Assembly: GCA_964531475.1 (NCBI GenBank)
Contig: CAZHCS010000001.1
Span: 14,712-78,711, forward strand
Direction: 5' to 3'
DNA from: an uncultured Candidatus Saccharibacteria bacterium
GTDB lineage: Bacteria; Patescibacteriota; Minisyncoccia; Phycocordibacterales; CSBR16-119
DNA: 64,000 bases
The first letter of the stretch is position 1. The number at the start of each line of letters is the position of its first letter. Under the pieces are notes generated by a model. The model searched no databases. It was not told the origin of the DNA and was given only the letters and a program-made list of their open reading frames with translations. Position numbers and translations under genes: made by a program. Shown here in pieces: positions 109 through 62,888 of the stretch.

Positions 109-993
109 TCATACAGATCTATTGTACCAAGTTATTCTGTTGTCTTTGCGAAACCATGTGCGCTGTCTTTTTGCGTACTGCCAGATTTTCGTCTTGAGAA
201 TATCTTTCATTTCGTCTTCCGAAATTTTACCCTGGAGGAACTTCGCAATGTAGCGGTATTCTAGTCCGAAGTTTTCAAGTCTTTCCCAAGAGACTCCTCC
301 GCCAGCTGGCGGATTCGCATGGAGTTTTCTTACCTCATCTACCATGCCAAGTTCGAGGCGCTTCTCGATACGTTTGGCAATGCGCTCTTTCAAGATTTCG
401 TCAGGGAAGTCGAGACCGATGAGCTCGAAATCATAGTTCTGTGGGCCGTATTTCACTGCAGGAATGACGCCGAGGGCGCGTCCGAGCTCAATAGCGCGGA
501 TAACCCGGCGTTTGTTTTCTGTGTCGATTTTTGCGCCTTCTTCTTTTGGGATGCTTAGCAGGATTTCTTGGAGTTCTTCTAGGCTTTTTCCTTGGAGCTC
601 TTTGCGAAGTATCGGATCGGCCGGAGCGGCGGGGAAAACTGGGTTATCGACGACGGCCTGGATGAAGTACCCCGTTCCGCCGCAAATGATGGGTGTCTTG
701 CCGCGAGAGAGAATTTCTTCGATTTTTTCAAAAGCGAGTCTTTGGTATTCCTCAACAGAAAAATCTTCATGCGGATCGCGAATATCTAGGAGGTGGTGGG
801 GAACACCTTTCATTTCTTTGTGGGTTATTTTCCCAGTACCAAGATCCATCCCGCGGTACACTTGGCGTGAGTCGGCCGAGATGATTTCGCCTCCGCCAGC
901 TGGCGGATTGAGCTCCAAAGTCAAATTTACAGCGTAATCAGATTTACCAGTCGCTGTCGGGCCGAGGATGATGTAAACTTTTGGCTTTTCCAT
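109..993 (-). CDS. miaA: tRNA dimethylallyltransferase (MiaA)
   Basis: 294 aa. N-terminal P-loop IILGPTATGKS and the ISADSRQVYRGMDLGTGK motif are typical of MiaA. It carries two in-frame NPPAGGG inserts. Confidence 0.85.
   Translation of the reverse strand: MEKPKVYIILGPTATGKSDYAVNLTLELNPPAGGGEIISADSRQVYRGMDLGTGKITHKEMKGVPHHLLDIRDPHEDFSVEEYQRLAFEKIEEILSRGKTPIICGGTGYFIQAVVDNPVFPAAPADPILRKELQGKSLEELQEILLSIPKEEGAKIDTENKRRVIRAIELGRALGVIPAVKYGPQNYDFELIGLDFPDEILKERIAKRIEKRLELGMVDEVRKLHANPPAGGGVSWERLENFGLEYRYIAKFLQGKISEDEMKDILKTKIWQYAKRQRTWFRKDNRITWYNRSV
296..315 (-). repeat. P1 palindromic insert CCTCCGCCAGCTGGCGGATT (copy 1), in-frame in miaA
   Basis: A 20-nt sequence identical to 890-909. Its 14-bp core CCGCCAGCTGGCGG is a perfect palindrome. 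On the coding strand it encodes NPPAGGG. Confidence 0.8.
890..909 (-). repeat. P1 palindromic insert (copy 2), in-frame in miaA
   Basis: Identical to 296-315. It encodes LNPPAGGGE, inserted just before the conserved IISADS motif. Confidence 0.8.
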
Positions 994-4495: not shown

Positions 4496-4563
4496 AAACT
4501 GTGTTTCTTTACCCTGCGGGAGCGTGTCTGCGCACTAGGTCCTCGGGTTCAGAAACACAGTTT
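4496..4563. other. 13-bp inverted repeat (AAACTGTGTTTCT / AGAAACACAGTTT) enclosing a 42-nt loop, in the rel-lepA divergent intergenic region
   Basis: The two arms are perfect reverse complements. Possible regulatory RNA structure or operator. Confidence 0.5.
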
Positions 4564-8258: not shown

Positions 8259-8330
8259 GCCCCCATAGTTCAATGGATAGAACAGTTCCGTCCTAAGGAG
8301 TAGATGTACGTTCGATTCGTACTGGGGGCA
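8259..8330 (+). tRNA. tRNA-Arg(CCT)
   Basis: GCCCCCA/TGGGGGC acceptor, D-arm GTTCAATGGATAGAAC, anticodon loop GTCCTAA (anticodon CCT), T-arm GTACGTTCGATTCGTAC. No CCA encoded. Confidence 0.8.
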
Positions 8331-8375
8331 CACAAGCACAAAATTCCGCGTAAGCGGAATTTTGTGCTTGTGTGC
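8328..8375 (+). other. perfect 22-bp stem hairpin (GTAA loop) overlapping the last 3 nt of tRNA-Arg
   Basis: GCACACAAGCACAAAATTCCGC-GTAA-GCGGAATTTTGTGCTTGTGTGC. No U-tract follows. Confidence 0.7.
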
Positions 8376-8405
8376 CGGCCGCATAAATATGCTAAAATAT
8401 TACCC

Positions 8406-13568: not shown

Positions 13569-13622
13569 TACATGATGAAGAAGCGGCGGGCCGAAGGCCC
13601 GCCGCTTTTCTTTTCTATAATT

Positions 13623-14801
13623 TTACAAACTCCAATTTGGATCTGCGACGATAGTTGCAAGTTCGGGAAATGCTTTGCCACTTCGTATCAAAAAAAATCC
13701 GGCTATCGCTATCATGAGAGAATTGTCAGTCGATAGATCGTGGTCGGGGAAAACGACTTGGGTTCCAGGGAATTCCGCCCCGGCCATTTCCGTTAGGCGC
13801 TCTTTGATATATGTGTTCGCCGACACGCCGCCACCGACTATTAGAGTTGTTGCGCCGAATTCGGCTACCGCATCGCGTGTTTTTTTCACCAAAACATCGG
13901 TTACGGCCGTTTCGAATTCGCGCGCGACATCGCATTTTGTTTGTTCGTCCATTTCGCCGAGTTTTTTTACGAGATACAGAACCGAGGTTTTGATTCCGGA
14001 AAATGAAAAACTATAATCCCCCGAATTGATCATTGGCCTTGGCAAACTAATATCCGCGCGCGTGACGCCGCGTTTTGCAAGTTCAGAAACTTTTGGTCCG
14101 CCAGGGTAGGGTAACCCCAGAAGTCGCGCGACTTTGTCGAACGCCTCACCGACAGCGTCGTCTTTGGTCGCACCGATTTTTGTACATGCAAGGAAGTCGT
14201 TCATGACGACGAGCTCGGTATGGCCGCCAGAAATGAGAAGCGATATCGCAGGGAAGCGGAGGTTTGATATGTCTAGGGTTTGCGGCGTGTTTGGTGTCGC
14301 GGTGATGAGTGTCGAAAGCGCGTGCCCGTGCATATGGTTTGCCGGCATGACGGGTATGTCCCAGATTAGCGAGAGAGCTTTTGCGAAGTTGATACCGACC
14401 CACAATGCTGGTGCGAGTCCAGGACCAGCAGTGACGACGATAGCGTCAAGCGCTGGGCGTTCGATTGTGTTCGCGATTTCGAGCACCACGTCAGCCATTT
14501 TGCCTTCGCGCTCAAGGAGCCTTCTGATCTCATCCGGCCCAGTATTCAAGGTCGAACCTTGAATACTTGGATGATACATATCGGCCTGCTTCAAGCATTC
14601 GACGAAAATCGGCGGCAAGTTTTTAGCGTGTTCTCGCTTGGCCAAGTTAGGATAGACGCCGCCGAATTCGCGATGTATGTCGATCTGCGAGCGGACTACG
14701 TTCGCGAGTACGGTAAAAGTCGCCGTATTGTCCGTTTCGACGACGTCGAGGATAGAAATCGCGGTTTCGTCGCAGGATGTTTCGATAGAGAGAAGCTTCA
14801 T
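13623..14801 (-). CDS. tsaD: tRNA N6-adenosine threonylcarbamoyltransferase TsaD
   Basis: LSIETSCDETAIS, GGVSAN, LGLPYPGGP. It contains an in-frame P2 insert (PSIQGSTLNT). Confidence 0.9.
   Translation of the reverse strand: MKLLSIETSCDETAISILDVVETDNTATFTVLANVVRSQIDIHREFGGVYPNLAKREHAKNLPPIFVECLKQADMYHPSIQGSTLNTGPDEIRRLLEREGKMADVVLEIANTIERPALDAIVVTAGPGLAPALWVGINFAKALSLIWDIPVMPANHMHGHALSTLITATPNTPQTLDISNLRFPAISLLISGGHTELVVMNDFLACTKIGATKDDAVGEAFDKVARLLGLPYPGGPKVSELAKRGVTRADISLPRPMINSGDYSFSFSGIKTSVLYLVKKLGEMDEQTKCDVAREFETAVTDVLVKKTRDAVAEFGATTLIVGGGVSANTYIKERLTEMAGAEFPGTQVVFPDHDLSTDNSLMIAIAGFFLIRSGKAFPELATIVADPNWSL
14541..14571 (-). repeat. P2 palindromic insert AGTATTCAAGGTCGAACCTTGAATACTTGGA (copy 1), in-frame in tsaD
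   Basis: 31 nt identical to 25745-25775. The 11-bp stem AGTATTCAAGG/CCTTGAATACT with TCGAA loop is a perfect hairpin. It encodes PSIQGSTLNT. Confidence 0.85.
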
Positions 14802-23458: not shown

Positions 23459-23851
23459 TTAAAAACCGAAACTCTTCATCAAGCGTTTTTCCTTGGCTTC
23501 CATTGTACTACCGTGCCGCTGTCCGGCCAAATGGAGCATACCGTGGATAACTAAAAAGGCGACATGTTGATTACATCCGCGACCATACAACAGGCATTCG
23601 GCCTTGGCTGCGGCGAGCGAGATGACGATTTCTCCCGAATTTTTTGAGAGCGGGAAAGACAGGACATTTATATGCGTTGGATCTCCTTTGTAAGTTTGCG
23701 AGAGTTCGCGCATTTTTGCCGTCGAGACAAATGAAATGGAAAGTTCGTATTTTGGTCCCAAGATTTCTTTATACAATTCGGCAAAAGGCACTCGAGGAAG
23801 AGTGCCTTTGGTCATATTAGAGACGTCCAAATTTTCGGCGCCGCGAAACAT
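23459..23851 (-). CDS. ybeY: rRNA maturation endoribonuclease YbeY
   Basis: HGMLHLAGQRH matches the YbeY HxxxHxxxxxH metal-binding motif. 130 aa. Confidence 0.7.
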   Translation of the reverse strand: MFRGAENLDVSNMTKGTLPRVPFAELYKEILGPKYELSISFVSTAKMRELSQTYKGDPTHINVLSFPLSKNSGEIVISLAAAKAECLLYGRGCNQHVAFLVIHGMLHLAGQRHGSTMEAKEKRLMKSFGF

Positions 23852-24699: not shown

Positions 24700-24762
24700 G
24701 TATTGTAAAGTTTTGGTTCGGCTGTACGATACGTGAACCCTTTGTGATTGTCAAACGTTAAG

Positions 24763-24783
24763 ACTAGAGGTCCGACCTCTAGT
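24763..24783. repeat. P3 palindrome ACTAGAGGTCCGACCTCTAGT (21 nt, odd-centred perfect), 2 nt downstream of the priA-like stop codon
   Basis: Shares the 13-nt core GAGGTCCGACCTC with the in-frame palindrome in mnmA (36192-36216). Confidence 0.75.
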
Positions 24784-24784
24784 C

Positions 24785-26524
24785 CTAGAGCATCTCCGGG
24801 TTGATCCGGATCTGCCAATCGGGGCCGAGAGAGGCGAGGATGCTCGAGAGATGCGGGTTTTGGAATAATTCGTTCCATTCATTCTTTGCGAGCTTCATGA
24901 CGATGACGGTTTCAAATGCCTTGCCGCGTTTGATTCGGCGTGGGAGCGGGGACCAGTCGGCGAGCATGGTGAGGAGTGGTGCAGCGACGCTTTCGAAATC
25001 GTCTTTTGGAGGGATACGCGACAAGCGGACGATCGTGCCAAATGGCGGATAGCTAAACTTTTCTCGCATGAGTTTTTCTGATTCGTAAAATTTTGCGAGG
25101 TCACCACTTGTCGCGGCAATGATGGCTGGCGTGCTTGGTTCGCGGGTTTGGAGAAATACATTATCGGATAGTTTTCCGATGGCCAGCGCGAGACGGAGCA
25201 TCTTTTCATACACACGAAATGACGGAAGCGAGAGAAGTGCGTCCATGGAAATGACGGCAGCGACATCGAGGCGTTTCTCGAGGTACGGCAACGCGAGTTC
25301 CGTACCGACGAGAATCGCATTATTCGACGCGTAAAACTTTTCGATGACCTCGCGGACTTTTTTGTCAGTTTTGACTGTGTCGCCGTCGATTTGAAAAATT
25401 TCTTTTTTCGGAAATAGTTTTTCTGCTTCTTGTGCCACTGTGTCCGTGCCGATACCGAGCGAATCGAAATTCCAACTGTCGCATATAGGGCAGCGTGTGC
25501 GAGTGTCTAGTACAGTGTTAGTGAGTGGGTTGATTAGTATACGCTGGCCGCCACGTTCACGAAGTGCGAGCGGTGTATCGCCGTCTTTTAATATGTGTCC
25601 GCAATCGTGACAGACGACAGAGCTCGCCAAGCCTTTTTTGAGCGAAAAGAGAAATGCGTGCTTTGATTCGCGAACAGCTTCGAACACTGCGCTTGAAAAG
25701 ATAAAACTTTTCTTATATCGCGCTTCCTTATCACTCATGTCGCAAGTATTCAAGGTCGAACCTTGAATACTTGGAATCGGGAGATATTGTTCGACGATCG
25801 TTTCGAGTGTCGTTGGATTTTCAAATATAAGTTTTGTGTTTAGGGATTTTGCAAGTAGTCGAGCAAAGACGCGCAGGTCGAAATAGGGACGCTTGATTGT
25901 GCGGTAGGCGGCGTTGCCTTCGTCGTGAATGATGATGGTGCCAAGATCGTGTCGTGGTGTGAAAAGAAAAGTTGGCGTCATAACGACGGTAATAGGATTT
26001 GTGCACTCTAATATTTCCTTGTAACGGGCGAAAAGAGTTTTCTTGCGCAAGCTTCCATGAATAATGAATGTTCTATCGAGGTCGAACTTCGATAGATTTT
26101 CATAAAGTTTTTCGGCGGCGCGGACGGTCGGCGCGATATGAAAGATAGTTGTGCCGACCGTCCGCGCCGCCGGTTTCGGCAACTCTTGGTGCTTGGTCAA
26201 GAACTCCGACGGAATAAAATAATTGATGATCTGGCCCAAGTTTCCAGCCGAAAAATCACGCGCGGCGCGGCACCCTTCGAAAAATTCTCTATAGAAGGGT
26301 GCCGCGCCGCGCTTCTCGCGCACTTTCCGTAATGCAAAATCAGAACCTTTGACATCTATCTTTCTTTTCGCCAAGTCGTCAACCGCGACTACTAGTGCAT
26401 CATAGGTTTTTTTTCGTATGTCTATAGACACGATATCGCCGACACTAATATCTTTGGACGAAAAATAGGTGAGCGAGTCTTTCGCGACTTTGTCGGTGAT
26501 TGGTGAGACTTCGATAAGCTTCAT
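24785..26524 (-). CDS. primosomal protein N' (PriA)-like, with degenerate helicase motifs
   Basis: The N-terminal 3'-DNA-binding-like region and the Cys-rich zinc-binding region (CHDCGH...CPICDSW) align to PriA. HIAPTVRAA stands where Walker A GxGKT should be, and IIIHDEG replaces DEEH. It carries an in-frame P2 insert. Confidence 0.55.
   Translation of the reverse strand: MKLIEVSPITDKVAKDSLTYFSSKDISVGDIVSIDIRKKTYDALVVAVDDLAKRKIDVKGSDFALRKVREKRGAAPFYREFFEGCRAARDFSAGNLGQIINYFIPSEFLTKHQELPKPAARTVGTTIFHIAPTVRAAEKLYENLSKFDLDRTFIIHGSLRKKTLFARYKEILECTNPITVVMTPTFLFTPRHDLGTIIIHDEGNAAYRTIKRPYFDLRVFARLLAKSLNTKLIFENPTTLETIVEQYLPIPSIQGSTLNTCDMSDKEARYKKSFIFSSAVFEAVRESKHAFLFSLKKGLASSVVCHDCGHILKDGDTPLALRERGGQRILINPLTNTVLDTRTRCPICDSWNFDSLGIGTDTVAQEAEKLFPKKEIFQIDGDTVKTDKKVREVIEKFYASNNAILVGTELALPYLEKRLDVAAVISMDALLSLPSFRVYEKMLRLALAIGKLSDNVFLQTREPSTPAIIAATSGDLAKFYESEKLMREKFSYPPFGTIVRLSRIPPKDDFESVAAPLLTMLADWSPLPRRIKRGKAFETVIVMKLAKNEWNELFQNPHLSSILASLGPDWQIRINPEML
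25745..25775 (-). repeat. P2 palindromic insert (copy 2), in-frame in the priA-like gene
   Basis: Identical 31 nt to 14541-14571. Encodes PSIQGSTLNT within ...EQYLPIPSIQGSTLNTCDMS... Confidence 0.85.
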
Positions 26525-33798: not shown

Positions 33799-34788
33799 AT
33801 GTACGACTTTATTTCGCCCGAACCTATCGATCGTCCGCGTTCTCGTTGGAAACGCGTGCTTGCCATAGGATTGATCATAATCGGAGGCATTGCTCTTGGA
33901 CAAGCATTTACACCACCTTCGGCCTTTCCGGCTGACACGGTTATTACAATCGAACAAGGTCAGAGTCTCGGCTCGATCGCGCGCAACTTTGAAGACAAGG
34001 GGCTAGTCCGTTCGGCCGGTATTTTTGAAACACTTGTTGTTTTGGTCGAAGGAGACAGGGGTATTGCGGCCGGTGATTATGTTTTTGAAGTTCCGGTCAA
34101 TGCTCTTGAACTTGCGCGGCGCGTCACTGGTTCGGACTTTGGTATAGGCAAGATTTCGGTGACCCTGCCGGAAGGTTTGACTATTGCCGAGATGGCTAGC
34201 GTGCTCGACGCCAAGCTCTCTAATTTTGATGCGGCAGCATTTGTGTCCGCAGCAAAACCTTCAGAAGGGTATCTTTTTCCTGACACGTATTATTTTTTTG
34301 CCACAACCGATGCGCCCAAGGCGATCGAAATGCTCAAGAAAACTTTTGATAAAAAGGTGACGCGCGGACTTGCGGCGGATTTCGCCGTAAGTCCGCGCGC
34401 TATGACGGACATAATTATTATGTCTTCTATTGTCGAGGCCGAAGCGCATGGTTCCTACGAAGAGAAGCGCATGATTGCTGGCATTTTGTGGAAACGCCTA
34501 GATGAGAAAATGCGCCTACAGGTAGACGCCACGCTTGCATACGTGACAGGGCGCGGCTCTGCCGAGCTTACTATTGCCGATCTTGAAGATGATCATCCTT
34601 ACAACACTTACACACGTTTTGGGCTCCCGCCGACGCCTATCGGCAATCCCGGACTCGACTCTATTCGTGCTGCGCTTGATCCCAAGCCTTCAGAATACTA
34701 CTTTTATCTCCATGACAAAGATGGTACGATACGATACGCGAAAAATTTTGAAGAGCACAAGAAAAACATCGCAACATATTTGAAATAA
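33799..34788 (+). CDS. mltG: endolytic murein transglycosylase MltG (YceG-like)
   Basis: N-terminal TM, then YLFPDTYYF and GLPPTPIGNPG motifs of the YceG family. Confidence 0.85.
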   Translation: MYDFISPEPIDRPRSRWKRVLAIGLIIIGGIALGQAFTPPSAFPADTVITIEQGQSLGSIARNFEDKGLVRSAGIFETLVVLVEGDRGIAAGDYVFEVPVNALELARRVTGSDFGIGKISVTLPEGLTIAEMASVLDAKLSNFDAAAFVSAAKPSEGYLFPDTYYFFATTDAPKAIEMLKKTFDKKVTRGLAADFAVSPRAMTDIIIMSSIVEAEAHGSYEEKRMIAGILWKRLDEKMRLQVDATLAYVTGRGSAELTIADLEDDHPYNTYTRFGLPPTPIGNPGLDSIRAALDPKPSEYYFYLHDKDGTIRYAKNFEEHKKNIATYLK

Positions 34789-35377: not shown

Positions 35378-36448
35378 ATGGGTGAAGTGCGCAAGAAAAA
35401 GGTATTCGTCGGCGTTTCGGGCGGAGTGGATAGCTCTGTGTCTTTGGCGCTCCTGCGAGACCAAGGCTATGACGTTGTTGGTTGCTTCATAAAGACCTGG
35501 CAGCCGGATTTTGTCACTTGCACATGGAAAGAAGAGCGCCGAGATGCTATGCGCGTATGCGCCAAACTAGGTGTCCCGTTTGTCATGATTGATGCAGAAG
35601 CCGCTTATCGTGACCACGTCGGTAAATATTTCATCGACGAATACAAGGCTGGCCGGACACCTAATCCCGACGTAATGTGCAATCGCGAAATAAAGTTCGG
35701 TATTTTTTTGGATTACGCGCTCGCGCACGGAGCCGACTACGTAGCCACGGGTCACTATGCGCAAACGGAAGCAGTAAACAACAAGCATTACTTACTAAGG
35801 GCGGGGAAAGACGAGGCAAAGGACCAGAGTTATTTTTTGTGGACGCTCACACAAGAACAACTATCAAAAATAATATTTCCCATTGGACATCTGCAAAAAT
35901 CAGAAGTCCGTAAGATTGCTGCAAAATATGATTTATTGACGGCAACTAAAAAAGATTCACAAGGCGTTTGTTTTTTAGGACCAATCGATATGAAAGAATT
36001 TCTCGCACACTATATCGACAAAAAACGCGGAGACGTTCTCGATGTAGATGGAAATGTCATTGGTTATCATGACGGCGCGCTATTTTTCACGCTCGGTGAA
36101 CGCCACGGTTTTATTATTACAAAAAAAGGTAGCGACGATACTCGGCTATACGTCGTTGACCGCAATCTTGCTGACAATACTATTACGGTCGCTGGTCGAG
36201 GTCCGACCTCGACCAGAGGCTTGCGGACCGAGATACGGATTGAAAATTGGAATTGGATCCAAAAACCAGAAAATGGCAAGATTTATGGGGCCCGTATTCG
36301 CTACCAACAACCCCTTCAGGCGTGCCGTGTAGAGGGCGAGATGGTCATATTTGATCAACCGCAGGAAGCCGCGGCGCCTGGGCAGTCGTGTGTCGTTTAT
36401 GATGCAGGAGTTTTGATAGGGGGAGGTATTGTAGGCCGTAGCTCTTGA
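35378..36448 (+). CDS. mnmA: tRNA-specific 2-thiouridylase MnmA
   Basis: PP-loop VFVGVSGGVDSSV, catalytic-Cys region, C-terminal barrel. Contains the in-frame P3 palindrome insert (AGRGPTSTRG). Confidence 0.9.
   Translation: MGEVRKKKVFVGVSGGVDSSVSLALLRDQGYDVVGCFIKTWQPDFVTCTWKEERRDAMRVCAKLGVPFVMIDAEAAYRDHVGKYFIDEYKAGRTPNPDVMCNREIKFGIFLDYALAHGADYVATGHYAQTEAVNNKHYLLRAGKDEAKDQSYFLWTLTQEQLSKIIFPIGHLQKSEVRKIAAKYDLLTATKKDSQGVCFLGPIDMKEFLAHYIDKKRGDVLDVDGNVIGYHDGALFFTLGERHGFIITKKGSDDTRLYVVDRNLADNTITVAGRGPTSTRGLRTEIRIENWNWIQKPENGKIYGARIRYQQPLQACRVEGEMVIFDQPQEAAAPGQSCVVYDAGVLIGGGIVGRSS
36192..36216 (+). repeat. P3 palindrome CTGGTCGAGGTCCGACCTCGACCAG (25 nt, perfect), in-frame in mnmA
   Basis: Shares the core GAGGTCCGACCTC with 24763-24783. 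Confidence 0.8.
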
Positions 36449-36648: not shown

Positions 36649-38328
36649 ATGGAAAGCGCAGTTATCCGCAAGAAATTCTTGCAATTTTTTGAATCAAAAG
36701 GGCATACAACTATCCCCTCGGCCTCGCTAGTACCAGTCGGGGACTCGTCGGTACTCTTTACGACTGCTGGTATGCAGCCACTAGTACCGTATCTTTTAGG
36801 TGCGTCGCATCCTGCTGGTACGCGCCTAACTAGCGCGCAAAAGTGCGTCCGCACGGGCGATATCGACGACATCGGCGATAATCGTCACCTTACTTTTTTT
36901 GAAATGCTTGGTAACTGGTCGCTCGGCGATTATTTCAAAGACGAATCGATTGCTTGGAGCTACCAATTTTTGACTAACAAAGACGTCGGGCTCGGTCTTG
37001 ATCCGTCGCGGCTCTACGTCACTTGTTTCGAGGGCGACGAGAGTGCGCCGCGTGACGAGGAATCTAAATCTATCTGGATGAAGGCCGGCATTCCCGAGTC
37101 GCGGATCTATTTCTTGGGCAAAGACGATAACTGGTGGGGACCAGGCGACAATGGTCCGTGCGGACCAGATACAGAAATCTTTTATGATGTTACTGGCAAG
37201 CTTGGCGAGCTTTCGCATGAACAGTTTCTCTTGGCACAAAAGAGCGAACAAGTTATCGAGATCTGGAATAACGTTTTCATGGAGTATGAATCGCGCGACG
37301 GCAAAGTTGTTGGTAAACTCGCGCAGAAAAATGTCGATACGGGCATGGGTCTTGAGCGCATTACCGCTGTTGTCAACGGCAAGACGAGCGTCTACGATAC
37401 CGACCTCTTTAGTAGTGAATCAACAAAAGAAGATAGAGTCGTAGCTGACCATGTAAAAGCCGCCCTCTTTCTAATATCTGATGGTGTTTTACCAGGAAAT
37501 ACTGGTCAAGGATATATTGTTCGTCGCTTGATTCGTCGTGCGGTTAGGTTTTCCAAAGAACCGCTTGTAGACAAGATTAATGCAGTCAAGAAATTGTATG
37601 CGGGAATTTATGAACTCGACGATCATGGAGAGATAGAAAAAGAAGAGGCAAAGTTTCGCACGACGCTCGAGAAGGGTATGAAAGAGTTTGAAAAAGGCGA
37701 GCGCGATGCATTTGTATTGTTCACGTCTTACGGTTTTCCATTCGAGATGACCGAAGAACTTGCTCGTGAGCGCGGAGAAACTCTATCGAAATCCGATTTC
37801 GATATGAAAATGGCCGAGCATCAAAAGCTCTCACAGTCTGCTTCCGCCGGCATGTTCAAGGGCGGACTTGCGAATCATAATGAAGCGACGATCAAGCTCC
37901 ATACAGCGCATCACTTACTTCTCGCCGCACTTCAGCAAGTGCTCGGTCCCGAGGTAAAACAGCGGGGAAGCAATATTACCGAAGAGCGCCTGCGCATCGA
38001 TTTCTCATTCGACCGCAAGATGACCGACGAAGAGAAGAAGCGTGTCGAAGATATCGTGAACGACGCCATTTCGCGTGACTTGAAAGTTATTCGCCGAGAA
38101 ATGACGCGTGATGAAGCCGAAAAGATCGGCGCGCAGATGGAGTTTGGTGCAAAATACGGTGATACGGTTTCGGTTTACTTTATCGAAAACGAAAACGGGG
38201 AAGCTTTTAGCAAGGAGTTCTGTGGTGGGCCTCATGTCGAACATACTGGCAAACTCGGTCATTTCAAGATTCAAAAAGAAGAAGCCTCGAGCCAGGGCGT
38301 CCGACGAATCAAAGCAGTTTTGGGATAA
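36649..38328 (+). CDS. alaS: alanine--tRNA ligase (short form: catalytic plus editing domain, no C-terminal oligomerisation domain)
   Basis: KKFLQFFESKGHTTIPSASLVP, FTTAGMQPL, and the editing motif HTAHHLLLAAL. 559 aa from MESAV; the ORF-track start at 36445 is an upstream extension. Confidence 0.85.
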   Translation: MESAVIRKKFLQFFESKGHTTIPSASLVPVGDSSVLFTTAGMQPLVPYLLGASHPAGTRLTSAQKCVRTGDIDDIGDNRHLTFFEMLGNWSLGDYFKDESIAWSYQFLTNKDVGLGLDPSRLYVTCFEGDESAPRDEESKSIWMKAGIPESRIYFLGKDDNWWGPGDNGPCGPDTEIFYDVTGKLGELSHEQFLLAQKSEQVIEIWNNVFMEYESRDGKVVGKLAQKNVDTGMGLERITAVVNGKTSVYDTDLFSSESTKEDRVVADHVKAALFLISDGVLPGNTGQGYIVRRLIRRAVRFSKEPLVDKINAVKKLYAGIYELDDHGEIEKEEAKFRTTLEKGMKEFEKGERDAFVLFTSYGFPFEMTEELARERGETLSKSDFDMKMAEHQKLSQSASAGMFKGGLANHNEATIKLHTAHHLLLAALQQVLGPEVKQRGSNITEERLRIDFSFDRKMTDEEKKRVEDIVNDAISRDLKVIRREMTRDEAEKIGAQMEFGAKYGDTVSVYFIENENGEAFSKEFCGGPHVEHTGKLGHFKIQKEEASSQGVRRIKAVLG

Positions 38329-45657: not shown

Positions 45658-47328
45658 ATGACCCAAGCTGAAGCTCTCCAAATCCTCAAAACCGGCGCCA
45701 ACGTTTTCCTGACCGGTGCGCCGGGTGCGGGCAAGACGTATGTGCTCAATCAGTACATCAAGTACTTGAAAGAACATGACATTCCCGTTGCGGTTACGGC
45801 TTCGACCGGTATCGCCGCAACGCACATTGGCGGCGTGACAATACATTCGTGGTCGGGTATTGGCGCGCGCGACAGTATTTCCGATATAGAGGCCGACGCT
45901 CTCGAAGGCAAGCATTACCTCTGGAAGCGTTACGAAAAAACTAAAGTCCTCGTCATCGACGAGATATCCATGCTCTCGGCCGGGCTTCTGGATGCCGTCA
46001 ATAAAGTTTGTCGTGGGTTCAAAAGAAATACGGCACCTTTTGGAGGAATGCAGGTGGTTTTTGTTGGCGACTTTTTTCAGCTTCCGCCGATTACAAAAAA
46101 AGGCGACGAACCAAAATTCGCGTTTGAGTCCGAGGCCTGGAAAGAAACCAATCCGCTCGTGCTCTACATCACCGAACAGCACCGCCAAGAAGACGATACA
46201 CTTTTGTCTGTTCTCGATCGTATTCGTCGTGGCGACATAGAAGACGAATTCGTCGACCTATACGACCGCCTAAACGTCGAGCTGCCCGACACGACGCGCG
46301 CCACGCGGCTCTTTACGCACAATGTCGACGTCGACGGGCTCAATGCCGAAGAGCTAGACAAACTAGACGACGAAGAGCGTTACTACGAAATGGAAACGGA
46401 GGGCAAAGAAAATCATGTCGAGCGACTCATCGCTTCATGTCTTTCGCCCGAACAACTGTGTCTCAAGCGCGGAGCCGTTGTCATGTGCACGAAGAATAAT
46501 TTTGACAAAGGTTTCGTCAACGGTACGCTCGGCGAAGTGACCGATTTTGAAGACGATACAGATTTTCCTATCATCACTACCAACGACGGTCGGCAGATTG
46601 TAATCGAGCCCGACGAGTGGGCGATCCAAGACGGCGATAAACGGCTGGCGGTTATTCGCCAAGTGCCGCTTCGTCTTGCCTGGGCTATTACCGTACACAA
46701 GAGTCAGGGCATGAGCCTCGATGCTGCGCAGATTGACCTCGGGCGCGCGTTCGAATTCGGCCAGGGTTATGTCGCGCTATCGCGAGTGCGGACGCTCGCG
46801 GGCCTCTCGCTCCTTGGGTTCAACGCAAATGCATTGATGGTTCATCCGAAAGTCATGCAGGAAGACGCTCGCTTGCGCAAAAAATCCGAAGACATCGCGG
46901 CGTATCTGGGCACAAAGAGTGAAGAAGACATGAAAAAATCCCACGAAGAATTCATAACTCGTGTTGGCGGCTCGATCGACGTTATCGACCTGGCCGCGCG
47001 GGAAGCCGAAGATGAACGCATTTCAACTTTTGAAAAAACAAAGCGCATATTACTCGAAGGCAAATCTATTGCCGAGATCGCAACAGAGCGCGGCCTGACC
47101 GACCAAACGGTTATCGACCACTTGGAAACGCTCGTCGACAAAGGTCTCATTTCCGTCGACAAGCTTGATCACATCCGTCCCAAGACGCGCGCTTTTGCCG
47201 ACCTGGTAGCGACATTTCAATCCGTTTACGACGCAACAGGGGAGACGAACCTCGCGCCGGTCAAACGCAAGGCTCCAAAAGCCTCGTACCGCGACATTCA
47301 ATTGGCCCGCATTTTCCTGAATAAATAA
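45658..47328 (+). CDS. PIF1/RecD-like ATP-dependent DNA helicase with a C-terminal HTH domain
   Basis: Walker A GAPGAGKT, PIF1 signature VVFVGDFFQLPPI, Walker B VLVIDEISM. The C-terminal ILLEGKSIAEIATERGLTDQTVIDHLETLV is HTH-like. Confidence 0.7.
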   Translation: MTQAEALQILKTGANVFLTGAPGAGKTYVLNQYIKYLKEHDIPVAVTASTGIAATHIGGVTIHSWSGIGARDSISDIEADALEGKHYLWKRYEKTKVLVIDEISMLSAGLLDAVNKVCRGFKRNTAPFGGMQVVFVGDFFQLPPITKKGDEPKFAFESEAWKETNPLVLYITEQHRQEDDTLLSVLDRIRRGDIEDEFVDLYDRLNVELPDTTRATRLFTHNVDVDGLNAEELDKLDDEERYYEMETEGKENHVERLIASCLSPEQLCLKRGAVVMCTKNNFDKGFVNGTLGEVTDFEDDTDFPIITTNDGRQIVIEPDEWAIQDGDKRLAVIRQVPLRLAWAITVHKSQGMSLDAAQIDLGRAFEFGQGYVALSRVRTLAGLSLLGFNANALMVHPKVMQEDARLRKKSEDIAAYLGTKSEEDMKKSHEEFITRVGGSIDVIDLAAREAEDERISTFEKTKRILLEGKSIAEIATERGLTDQTVIDHLETLVDKGLISVDKLDHIRPKTRAFADLVATFQSVYDATGETNLAPVKRKAPKASYRDIQLARIFLNK

Positions 47329-60903: not shown

Positions 60904-60988
60904 GAGGGGATTGTAGCACGGAGCGGCGGGCCCGGGGCCCGCCGCTTCAATTGGGGAAAGAGTGGAAAATGGGGAAAAACATTTGGTA

Positions 60989-62843: not shown

Positions 62844-62888
62844 GAAGCCGGGCTGGGGTGATGCAAAGCATCACCCCAGCCCGGCTTC
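62844..62888 (+). terminator. long perfect hairpin terminator (21-bp stem, AAA loop)
   Basis: GAAGCCGGGCTGGGGTGATGC-aaa-GCATCACCCCAGCCCGGCTTC followed by TTGCTTTTCC. Confidence 0.7.

What the first reader, a model, noticed from the sequence alone, without database searches (positions are those of the whole stretch)
24763..24783. P3 palindrome family: GAGGTCCGACCTC core at the priA-like 3' end and in-frame inside mnmA
ACTAGAGGTCCGACCTCTAGT (24763-24783) is a 21-nt odd-centred perfect palindrome lying 2 nt after the priA-like stop codon. It shares its 13-nt core with the 25-nt perfect palindrome CTGGTCGAGGTCCGACCTCGACCAG embedded in-frame in mnmA (36192-36216, encoding AGRGPTSTRG). This is a third palindromic family, alongside P1 in miaA and P2 in tsaD and the priA-like gene. 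The recurring architecture is a perfect stem, a loop of 1-5 nt, and a length that is a multiple of three when inside genes. This suggests a common generating mechanism.
Basis: seen in the sequence. Interest (0 to 1): 0.6.

Follow-up and report, generated by a model that had tools for sequence, protein, structure and literature searches.

The report
Dispersed coding hairpin palindromes in Patescibacteria
The two look-alike palindromes are real members of a widespread family of short, perfectly symmetric hairpin repeats in Patescibacteria (CPR bacteria); copies sit just after genes and also inside essential genes, where they are translated as loop peptides and stay symmetric across species.

Summary
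Both palindromes exist as described. The first extends to 23 nt (24762-24784) and abuts the priA TAG stop. The second is 12+1+12 nt inside mnmA and encodes GRGPTSTR.

They are not a separate "third family". Six of 10 family-level mnmA orthologs, and three of four genomes compared at the priA site (window included), carry a perfect hairpin there. The core is invariant and the arms differ, always changed on both sides.

None of the intragenic copies adds length relative to orthologs, so they are coding palindromes in variable loops, not in-frame insertions. The intergenic copy is about 22 nt of extra DNA compared with the closest relative. It shares a 13-nt arm with the mnmA element of another genome. 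One related genome has 9 copies in 21 kb, mostly just after stop codons.

Best reading: REP-like dispersed hairpin elements of Paceibacteria. Their symmetry is kept by arm-to-arm (template-switch) conversion, with occasional copying between loci. The intergenic copies probably act as 3' RNA hairpins. The mechanism is inferred, not shown.

This is a new bacterial variant of known kinds (REPs, coding palindromes of hairworm mitochondria). Moderately interesting.

The parts
24762..24784 (.). Intergenic P3 palindrome GACTAGAGGTCCGACCTCTAGTC (11+1+11). It abuts the priA-like stop and lies 7 nt before the -35 box of the next gene.
   Evidence: RNA fold -20.6 kcal/mol, z -2.9. Absent from the same spacer in L089, L090 and L091; about 22 nt extra compared with L089. 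Shares the arm TAAGACTAGAGGT with the L087 mnmA element.
36192..36216 (+). Intragenic P3 palindrome CTGGTCGAGGTCCGACCTCGACCAG (12+1+12) in mnmA, read GGT CGA GGT CCG ACC TCG ACC AGA = GRGPTSTR.
   Evidence: RNA fold -24.9 kcal/mol, z -3.7. Lies between the PRC-barrel (206-272) and the C-terminal barrel (284-352). Residues 275-281 have pLDDT <50 in the AlphaFold model. Length-neutral against orthologs.
35378..36448 (+). mnmA (tRNA 2-thiouridylase), host gene of the intragenic copy.
   Evidence: Pfam PF03054, PF20259, PF20258; homologs named MnmA, Candidatus Paceibacterota.
24785..26524 (-). Diverged PriA-like gene (primosomal protein N'). It carries two further family members and is followed by the intergenic copy.
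   Evidence: No Pfam hit. Homologs are named primosomal protein N', and distant ones carry PriA domains.
25743..25773 (-). P2 palindrome CAAGTATTCAAGGTCGAACCTTGAATACTTG (14+3+14) in priA at aa 251; sense reads SIQGSTLNT.
   Evidence: The orthologous codons in L090 and L091 carry P3-core or hybrid palindromes.
14538..14570 (-). P2 copy in tsaD (perfect part 14541-14567), 31 nt identical to the priA copy.
   Evidence: Lies in a variable segment of Patescibacteria TsaD and is length-neutral against the 57%-identical homolog.
26072..26096 (-). Imperfect family member in priA at aa 143; sense strand TCTATCGAAGTTCGACCTCGATAGA.
   Evidence: The orthologous site in L090 has TATTGAAATCGGATTTCAATA.
37784..37804 (+). 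TCCGA-centred palindrome TATCGAAATCCGATTTCGATA (10+1+10) in alaS. Its arms are related to the priA aa143 copy.
   Evidence: The same alaS codons in L094 carry TATCGAAGTCGGACTTCGATA; L086 has only a quasi-palindrome there.
24726..24754 (-). Promoter-like site TTGACA-17-TATCGT for the downstream 175-aa gene, directly after the intergenic palindrome.
   Evidence: 10 of 12 matches; a TTGACA is also present in L089 8 nt after the priA stop.

Best explanation
Both palindromes belong to one superfamily of short (19-31 nt) perfect palindromes in Paceibacteria-type Patescibacteria. The superfamily has an invariant core, AGGT-YSR-ACCT, and variable arms that are similar within a genome.

These are REP-like dispersed hairpin elements.
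- Intergenic copies lie just after stop codons. The 24762 copy is extra DNA placed between the priA stop and the next promoter. Once transcribed it most likely forms a 3'-end hairpin that acts as a terminator, mRNA stabiliser or insulator.
- Intragenic copies (mnmA, priA, tsaD, alaS) are 'coding palindromes'. They occupy existing codons of variable surface loops, are translated (GRGPTSTR in MnmA), and persist at the same codons across family-level divergence.

Their perfect symmetry is kept by a DNA-level process in which one arm templates the other: intrastrand template switching, also called quasi-palindrome correction. Occasional ectopic copying between loci homogenises the copies within a genome.

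Shown: family membership, the conserved core, change of arms on both sides, length neutrality, within-genome similarity, and loss in some lineages.
Inferred: the conversion mechanism, the RNA role of the intergenic copy, and the absence of any protein-level purpose.
For: - Excess of palindromes: the window has 24 perfect hairpins with stem >=10 against 0.8 in shuffles, most of them 0-20 nt after stop codons. AGGTNNGACCT has 4 sites against 0.23 expected.
- mnmA loop across 10 orthologs of >=70% identity: perfect AGGT-core hairpins in the window, L005, L086, L087 (14+1+14), L093 (13+1+13) and L088; decayed remnants in L094 and L095; none in L089 and L096. All have the same codon count.
- priA aa251: P2 in the window, P3 core in L090, hybrid in L091, none in L089.
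- Family alignment of 19 copies: the 4 core pairs do not vary (one T.G exception), and 8 of 12 pairs show changes on both sides. 93.9% of cells are paired against 26-49% when the partner is slid by 1-3 columns. The rows were partly chosen for being palindromes.
- Window against L005: third-codon-position identity is 45% across mnmA but 7 of 8 in the palindrome codons.
- Not protein-driven: in L035 the core is read in a different frame and also occurs in spacers, 9 copies in 21 kb.
- Copying between loci: the tsaD and priA P2 copies are identical over 31 nt. The window's intergenic copy shares TAAGACTAGAGGT with the L087 mnmA copy. The L094 mnmA copy and its intergenic copy share the same imperfections.
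- The intergenic copy is about 22 nt extra compared with L089.
- The peptide lies in a loop with pLDDT <50.
- Literature: CPR phyla have the highest perfect inverted-repeat density of any phylum (PMC13155455). Template-switch correction has been proposed for conserved perfect inverted repeats (PMC5941160) and for coding palindromes (PMC6649704).
Against: - There is no direct evidence for template switching.
- Template switching alone explains neither the invariant core across genes and genomes nor the 31-nt identity between tsaD and priA. A length-preserving route for ectopic copying is unknown.
- The 24762 hairpin has no U-tract, so it is not a canonical intrinsic terminator (one search does not list it).
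- Persistence with changes on both sides is equally what selection on an RNA hairpin would give.
- The sense-strand G.T against A.C mismatch test that could separate RNA-level from DNA-level constraint was inconclusive.
- Only about 64 kb of this genome and about 20-kb pieces of its relatives were seen, so copy numbers per genome are unknown.
Confidence: 0.55

Rival explanations
1. The intragenic hairpins are selected RNA structures in the mRNAs of translation and replication genes. They could be RNase or stability determinants, internal attenuators, or ribosome-pausing signals at domain boundaries. The arms co-vary because the helix is needed.
For: - The hairpins persist at the same codons of mnmA, priA and alaS across genomes whose synonymous sites are near saturation, with changes on both sides.
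- The predicted helices are strong, -20 to -25 kcal/mol.
- The mnmA copy lies exactly at a domain boundary.
- Several imperfect copies carry G.T on the sense strand (L005; the TTCGA centres of P2 and L088).
Against: - Functional RNA helices tolerate wobbles and bulges, but here the long copies are strictly perfect as DNA.
- The central base occurs in both orientations relative to transcription: CCG and CGG, TCA and TGA.
- Close relatives (L089, L096) have lost the hairpins at both sites while keeping the genes.
- The same elements occur in spacers.
- The systematic G.T against A.C count inside genes was 36 to 30, which shows no bias, although the set was noisy.
Confidence: 0.2
2. They are classical non-autonomous mobile elements (REP/RAYT-type or MITE-like). 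These would insert into spacers and, in frame, into genes, as Rickettsia palindromic elements do.
For: - There are many near-identical copies in one genome (L035).
- The intergenic copy is extra DNA compared with L089.
- Copies at different loci are identical or share imperfections.
- In other Patescibacteria, mnmA linker insertions contain palindromes (L034, L048, L035).
Against: - Every intragenic copy examined in this clade is length-neutral against orthologs.
- There is no GTAG or CGTC tag, no terminal inverted repeats beyond the palindrome itself, and no target-site duplication.
- Pfam scans of about 48 of the window's roughly 70 ORFs, plus the Pfam calls on orthologous loci for much of the remainder, found no Y1, HUH or other transposase.
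- The alaS and YceG cases look like in-situ perfecting of existing codons.
Confidence: 0.15
3. The conserved core AGGT-N3-ACCT is a DNA site for a dimeric protein, such as an operator, a partition or condensation site, or a methylase or restriction target. Alternatively the arms are DNA-uptake sequences arranged as inverted pairs.
For: - The core reads the same on both strands and is invariant while the arms vary.
- Two intergenic copies lie next to or over promoter-like hexamers: window 24726-24754 and L094 4521-4558.
- In other bacteria, uptake sequences are known to pair up in terminators (cited in PMC13155455).
Against: - An 11-bp site would not require 10-14-bp perfect arms.
- Related members lack AGGT altogether (AAATCCGATTT in alaS).
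- The density, about 6 in 64 kb, is far below that of uptake sequences.
- No single-arm copies were noticed.
Confidence: 0.05
4. The two palindromes share a core by chance.
For: Within the window alone the 13-mer statistic is weak: 3 of 100 shuffles reach the observed count.
Against: Cross-genome evidence is overwhelming. The same core sits at orthologous codons in 6 mnmA and 3 priA genes. A 13-nt arm is shared between the window's spacer copy and the L087 mnmA copy. About 22 of 37 AGGTNNNACCT occurrences in the loci extend to stems of 9 bp or more.
Confidence: 0.01

Closest known systems
REP elements (repetitive extragenic palindromes), including the intragenic REPs reported by Di Nocera et al. 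2013 (PMC3733652)
   Same: They are 20-40-nt palindromic repeats, multi-copy, mostly just downstream of coding regions. They are plausibly transcribed as RNA hairpins, and some copies lie inside genes for replication and repair.
   Different: - There is no unpaired GTAG or CGTC tag.
- The stems are perfect rather than imperfect.
- The conserved part is next to the loop (AGGT/ACCT), not at the foot of the stem.
- Intragenic copies are length-neutral and conserved at orthologous codons.
- No RAYT was seen in the window.
[quoted passage not shown] 2019, PMC6649704)
   Same: They are perfect inverted repeats embedded in functional protein-coding genes. Both arms are translated and no length is added. 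They are gained and lost between species. Perfection is attributed to arm-to-arm conversion, possibly by template switching.
   Different: - This case is bacterial, not mitochondrial.
- The repeats are much shorter (19-41 nt against up to 284 bp).
- Copies at different loci share a core and sometimes whole arms, so there is a dispersed family as well as in-situ palindromes.
- Copies also occur in spacers.
Rickettsia palindromic elements (RPEs; Ogata et al. 2000, from my own knowledge; mentioned in PMC6649704 and PMC3733652)
   Same: They are selfish palindromic repeats tolerated in frame inside essential genes of a reduced genome, where they encode surface-exposed peptide segments.
   Different: RPEs are about 100-150 bp and add residues as true insertions. 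They decay over time instead of staying perfect.
Conserved perfect short inverted repeats maintained by template switching in Proteobacteria (Lavi et al. 2018, PMC5941160)
   Same: Perfect inverted repeats are over-represented and more conserved across orthologous regions than expected. The proposed cause is correction of imperfect repeats to perfect ones.
   Different: That work does not describe a sequence family with a shared core, copying between loci, or long coding palindromes.
Rho-independent (intrinsic) terminators
   Same: The 24762 copy is a stable G+C-containing hairpin directly after a stop codon. Most other perfect hairpins in the window are typical terminators with flanking A and T tracts.
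   Different: The 24762 hairpin has no T-tract (its tail is TTAACGTTTGAC), and the same sequence family occurs inside ORFs.

Membership tests
REP elements | Short (20-40 bp) palindromic unit repeated many times in a genome | tested here: inconclusive
   The size fits at 19-31 nt. L035 has 9 copies in 21 kb, and the window has 4 AGGT-core copies plus 2 relatives in 64 kb. No whole genome was available.
REP elements | Unpaired GTAG or CGTC tag at one end (PMC3733652) | tested here: not met
   The flanks of all window copies and the 19 aligned copies show no conserved tag. The outer columns are variable.
REP elements | Predominantly extragenic, downstream of ORFs | tested here: inconclusive
   True for most L035 copies and for window 24762. 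However, 5 of the 6 window members are intragenic.
REP elements | Associated RAYT (Y1) transposase in the genome | not testable with these tools
   No Y1_Tnp or other transposase was found in the window ORFs scanned. The rest of the genome was not seen.
Rickettsia palindromic elements | In-frame insertion that adds residues compared with orthologs | tested here: not met
   The MnmA, PriA, TsaD, AlaS and YceG alignments show equal length at the palindrome.
Rickettsia palindromic elements | Unit length of about 100-150 bp | tested here: not met
   The units are 19-31 nt.
Coding palindromes (Nematomorpha type) | Perfect inverted repeat wholly inside a functional CDS, with both arms translated | tested here: met
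   The mnmA, priA, tsaD and alaS ORFs stay open through the palindromes, and the domains on both sides are intact.
Coding palindromes (Nematomorpha type) | No change of gene length; the arms align with orthologous residues | tested here: met
Coding palindromes (Nematomorpha type) | Repeats are either perfect or absent, with no excess of imperfect ones | tested here: inconclusive
   The long copies are perfect, but decayed remnants exist: L094, L095, L086 with 1 mismatch, and window priA aa143. The sample is small.
Intrinsic terminator (for the 24762 copy) | G+C-rich stem followed by a run of T | tested here: not met
   The stem is present at -20.6 kcal/mol. The tail is TTAACGTTTGAC, and the scan does not call this site.
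Known RNA families (Rfam) | Match to a curated covariance model | tested here: not met
   Only 5 tRNAs reach gathering score in the window.

The most novel reading that the evidence does not exclude
Patescibacteria may have a hairpin-directed, length-preserving copy or conversion process, or a trans-acting factor, that recognises the AGGT-N3-ACCT hairpin tip. Such a process would write and maintain these palindromes both in spacers and inside essential genes. That would make the intragenic copies products of a new kind of palindrome homing, or functional mRNA elements in tRNA-modification and replication genes, rather than passive by-products of replication.
Probability: 0.15. Interest if true: 0.8.

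Novelty: new variant of a known kind. Interest (0 to 1): 0.55.

Why it matters
- CPR and Patescibacteria are already reported to have the highest density of perfect inverted repeats of any phylum (PMC13155455), without an explanation of what those repeats are.
- This locus shows that part of the excess is a sequence family with a conserved core. The family lives both after genes and inside essential genes. It survives at the same codons across species while both arms change together.
- That gives a bacterial counterpart to the 'coding palindromes' of hairworm mitochondria. It also gives a tractable comparative system (many metagenome-assembled genomes, the same sites, presence or absence) for two questions. 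First, are perfect palindromes kept by selection on RNA or by self-templated DNA conversion? Second, how much do they shape loop sequences of conserved proteins?
- It is also a practical warning for annotation: peptide motifs such as G-S/P-T in these loops are dictated by DNA symmetry, not by protein function.

Tried and rejected
rejected by the ortholog alignments of MnmA, PriA, TsaD, AlaS and YceG.
- **Conservation at the protein-motif level (G-S/P-T):** rejected because the core is read in another frame in L035 and occurs in spacers.
- **Assembly artefact:** rejected. The mnmA palindrome is identical in four independent Logan assemblies and present with variation in ENA and NCBI assemblies.
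- **Rfam:** no family besides tRNAs.
- **T-arm or tRNA-like mimic (TTCGA centre):** considered and dropped. The loop is 5 nt rather than 7, and both orientations occur.
- **Sense-strand G.T against A.C mismatch test for RNA-level selection:** 36 to 30 inside genes and 21 to 12 downstream of genes. The intragenic set is dominated by chance hairpins, so the result is inconclusive.
- **Metagenome scan for GACTAGAGGTNNNACCTCTAGTC:** one contig (L092) of unclear relation, with few ORFs over its first 9.5 kb.
- **Viral scans:** the P2 pattern gave no hits. The P3 pattern gave one virus (four contigs), about the number expected by chance, although the match extends to 23 nt.
- **Transposase or RAYT search in the window:** nothing found.

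Full report
**1. The observation.**
- The first is a perfect 23-nt palindrome, GACTAGAGGTCCGACCTCTAGTC (24762-24784, 11+1+11). It abuts the TAG stop (24785-24787) of a minus-strand 579-aa ORF.
- The second, CTGGTCGAGGTCCGACCTCGACCAG (36192-36216, 12+1+12), lies in mnmA (35378..36448). It is read GGT CGA GGT CCG ACC TCG ACC AGA = GRGPTSTR.
- The shared 13-mer occurs exactly twice. As a within-window statistic that is weak: 3 of 100 shuffles reach the count at <=2 mismatches.
- The window as a whole is extraordinarily rich in perfect hairpins. There are 24 with stem >=10 and loop <=8, against 0.8 in dinucleotide shuffles, and 16 against 0.05 for stem >=12. Most lie 0-20 nt after stop codons and look like bidirectional terminators.

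**2. Organism and genes.**
- MnmA homologs are from Candidatus Paceibacterota, in the Patescibacteria group.
- The 579-aa ORF has no Pfam hit. Its homologs are called primosomal protein N', and distant ones carry PriA domains, so 'priA-like' is fair.
- The window otherwise holds housekeeping genes: miaA, parB, relA/spoT, lepA, a class I tRNA synthetase, tsaD, ftsZ, ftsA, mreB, yceG, alaS, ribosomal proteins, dnaK/J, cysS, dnaB and others (and the gene lists).
- No transposase was found among the ORFs scanned.

**3. P3 is not a separate family.** P2 and P3 share the core AGGT-YSR-ACCT. AGGTNNGACCT has four sites in the window against 0.23 expected, 0 of 100 shuffles. In all three intragenic AGGT-core copies the symmetry axis is the second base of a codon (GGT-YCG-ACC = G-S/P-T).

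Two further relatives are present:
- an imperfect copy in priA at aa 143 (26072-26096; sense TCTATCGAAGTTCGACCTCGATAGA);
- TATCGAAATCCGATTTCGATA in alaS (37784-37804), which shares the TATCGAA arm and a TCCGA centre.

**4. The intragenic copies are not insertions.**
- In a 23-sequence MnmA alignment the palindrome codons align without gaps to non-palindromic residues of orthologs. The query's extra length comes from an unrelated insertion at residues ~130-140.
- The same holds for PriA aa251 and for TsaD. The palindrome there lies in a ~40-aa segment that Patescibacteria TsaD has and E. coli-type TsaD lacks, but it is length-neutral within the group.
- It also holds for AlaS and for a different 39-41-nt palindrome in YceG.
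- In MnmA the peptide lies between the PRC-barrel (206-272) and the C-terminal barrel (284-352). Residues 275-281 have pLDDT <50 between two strands in an AlphaFold model with mean pLDDT 79. This is a permissive loop.

**5. Orthologous sites keep a hairpin while the arms change.** I fetched the DNA of close relatives. At the mnmA loop:

| Locus | Sequence at the loop | Form |
|---|---|---|
| window | CTGGTCGAGGTCCGACCTCGACCAG | perfect, 12+1+12 |
| L005 (78% aa identity) | TGGTCGAGGTCCGGCCTCGACCA | one T.G |
| L086 | CTAC(C)CGAGGTCGGACCTCG(A)GTAG | one mismatch |
| L087 | TAAGACTAGAGGTTCAACCTCTAGTCTTA | perfect, 14+1+14 |
| L093 | ACGATTAGAGGTCGGACCTCTAATCGT | perfect, 13+1+13 |
| L088 | CAAGGTTCGACCTTG | P2 core |
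| L094, L095 | recognisable remnants | decayed |
| L089, L096 | none | - |

At priA aa251 the window has P2. L090 has TGTTCGAGGTCGGACCTCGAACA (P3 core). L091 has CCCAAGGTCCGACCTTGGG (P2 stem with P3 centre). L089 has none.

At alaS, L094 has TATCGAAGTCGGACTTCGATA where the window has TATCGAAATCCGATTTCGATA. At priA aa143, L090 has TATTGAAATCGGATTTCAATA.

Between the window and L005, third-codon-position identity is 45% across mnmA but 7 of 8 in the palindrome codons.

In a 19-copy family alignment the four core pairs do not vary, apart from one T.G. Eight of 12 pairs have changes on both sides, and 93.9% of cells pair against 26-49% when the partner is slid. That alignment was partly chosen for palindromy, so it describes the family rather than testing it. 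The sets chosen by orthology are the test.

**6. It is a nucleic-acid feature, not a protein one.** In L035 (30% G+C) the unit ATCTCCGGAGGTT[G/C]AACCTCCGGAGAT occurs 9 times in 21 kb. Most copies are just after stop codons. Two are inside genes, including mnmA, where it is read in another frame (SPEVEPPEI). Across all loci, about 22 of 37 AGGTNNNACCT occurrences extend to stems of 9 bp or more.

Nine Bacilli control loci have only three intragenic stems >=10 bp, and none of this type.

**7. Evidence for copying between loci.**
- The tsaD and priA P2 copies are identical over 31 nt, including 4 nt beyond the palindrome.
- The window's intergenic copy shares TAAGACTAGAGGT...ACCTCTAGTC with the L087 mnmA element. 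They differ only in the centre, TCCGA against TTCAA, which is a compensated change.
- In L094 the mnmA remnant (GATACTTGGTTCAACCAGCTATC) and an intergenic copy at 4521-4547 share the same imperfections.
- Cores are more alike within a genome than between orthologous sites: both window P3 copies have TCCGA, both P2 copies have TTCGA, and all L035 copies have TT[G/C]AA. This indicates homogenisation within genomes.

**8. The intergenic copy.**
- In the window, 30 nt separate the priA stop from a TTGACA-17-TATCGT promoter-like site. These are the 23-nt palindrome plus TTAACGT.
- In L089, 8 nt separate the stop from a TTGACA. L090 and L091 also lack the palindrome.
- So here the element is about 22 nt of extra DNA.
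- As RNA it folds at -20.6 kcal/mol, with 0 of 200 shuffles as stable. It has no T-tract and is not called as a terminator.

**9. Mechanism.**
- Persistence of perfect symmetry over distances where synonymous sites are near saturation requires active maintenance.
- I favour DNA-level arm-to-arm conversion by intrastrand template switching. This has been proposed for conserved perfect inverted repeats in Proteobacteria (PMC5941160) and for the coding palindromes of Nematomorpha mitochondria (PMC6649704).
- Four observations support it. The long copies are strictly perfect. The centre occurs in both orientations relative to transcription. Sister lineages lose the hairpins at several sites at once (L089). 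The alaS and YceG cases look like in-situ perfecting of pre-existing codons.
- Conversion alone does not explain the invariant core or the copies shared between loci. Some ectopic copying must occur, and its length-preserving route is unknown.
- Selection on RNA hairpins remains a serious rival. My G.T against A.C test could not separate the two.

**10. Comparison and novelty.**
- The elements work like REPs: short palindromic repeats after genes, with some intragenic copies (PMC3733652). They fail the tag criterion, and no RAYT was seen.
- The intragenic copies behave like Nematomorpha coding palindromes, but they are bacterial, short, and part of a dispersed family.
- They are unlike Rickettsia palindromic elements in size and in being length-neutral.
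- A 2026 survey reports that CPR phyla (Campbellbacteria, Kaiserbacteria) have the highest perfect inverted-repeat density of all phyla (PMC13155455). So richness in palindromes is already known.
- Five full-text searches found no description of a conserved-core family with coding copies in Patescibacteria.
- I rate this a new variant of a known kind, with interest 0.55.

Noticed in passing
window 34361-34399 (yceG/mltG, 33799..34788 +); L001 8911-8951: A 39-41-nt G+C-rich coding palindrome, ACGCGCGGACTTGCGGCGGATTTCGCCGCAAGTCCGCGCGT. It is perfect (18+5+18) in another sample of the same species and has one C>T mismatch in the window. Orthologs in five related genomes have same-length, non-palindromic sequence encoding a similar peptide, so it arose in situ.
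   Followed up: partly
window 298-313 and 892-907 (miaA, 109..993 -): Two identical 16-nt perfect palindromes, TCCGCCAGCTGGCGGA, lie 594 nt apart inside miaA.
   Followed up: no
window 13581-13607 and 60922-60946: Two intergenic perfect hairpins share the arm AGCGGCGGGCC (AAGCGGCGGGCCGAAGGCCCGCCGCTT and AGCGGCGGGCCCGGGGCCCGCCGCT). This is another small within-genome family.
   Followed up: no
window 8327-8376 and 62844-62888: Two very long perfect hairpins (23-bp and 21-bp stems). The first starts at the 3' end of a tRNA gene (8259-8330).
   Followed up: no
window 23784-23809 (ybeY N-terminus); L090 12053-12078: A terminator-like hairpin, AAAGGCACTC...GAGTGCCTTT, lies inside the annotated start of ybeY. 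It is conserved in L090 with a different loop. The true ybeY start may be downstream, or the hairpin may terminate the upstream small gene.
   Followed up: no
L008 7072, L029 10893, L034 10902, L048 5326, L073 10122 and 10943, L010 10147, L012 11055, L033 11027: mnmA of many other Patescibacteria carries unrelated long perfect palindromes, often in the same inter-domain loop and sometimes within extra residues. About 17 of 66 intragenic palindromes (stem >=10 bp) in the MnmA-centred loci lie in mnmA itself, which makes up about 5% of the sequence. L012 and L033 have 12+1+12 units centred on GTC[C/G]GAC.
   Followed up: partly
L035 9072-19212: There are nine copies in 21 kb of ATCTCCGGAGGTT[G/C]AACCTCCGGAGAT in a 30% G+C genome. 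The arms contain GGAGGT/ACCTCC, which resemble Shine-Dalgarno and anti-Shine-Dalgarno sequences.
   Followed up: partly
L097-L100 (IMG/VR; e.g. L099 2315-2331): One virus (four contigs) has a 23-nt exact match, TCGAGGTCCGACCTCGACCAGAG, to the window's mnmA palindrome plus 2 flanking bases. The match lies inside a 1331-aa phage ORF in another frame. The 17-nt core hit is expected by chance; the 6-nt extension is mildly surprising (my rough estimate is p ~0.005).
   Followed up: partly
L092 7662-7684 and 9147-9169: A JGI metagenome contig with few ORFs over its first 9.5 kb carries GACTAGAGGTTAGACCTCTAGTC and GACTAGAGATCCCATCTCTAGTC. These are the same outer arms as the window's intergenic copy. 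The organism is unknown.
   Followed up: no
window 24785-26524 and homologs P0121-P0212: The PriA of this clade is short (about 580 aa) and matches none of the PriA helicase Pfam domains, although it keeps the Cys-rich motifs. It looks like a strongly diverged or reduced primosomal protein.
   Followed up: no
window 45658-47328: A PIF1-like helicase with a C-terminal HTH_40 domain. Pif1-family helicases unwind DNA secondary structures, so it is a possible candidate factor in a palindrome-rich genome.
   Followed up: no
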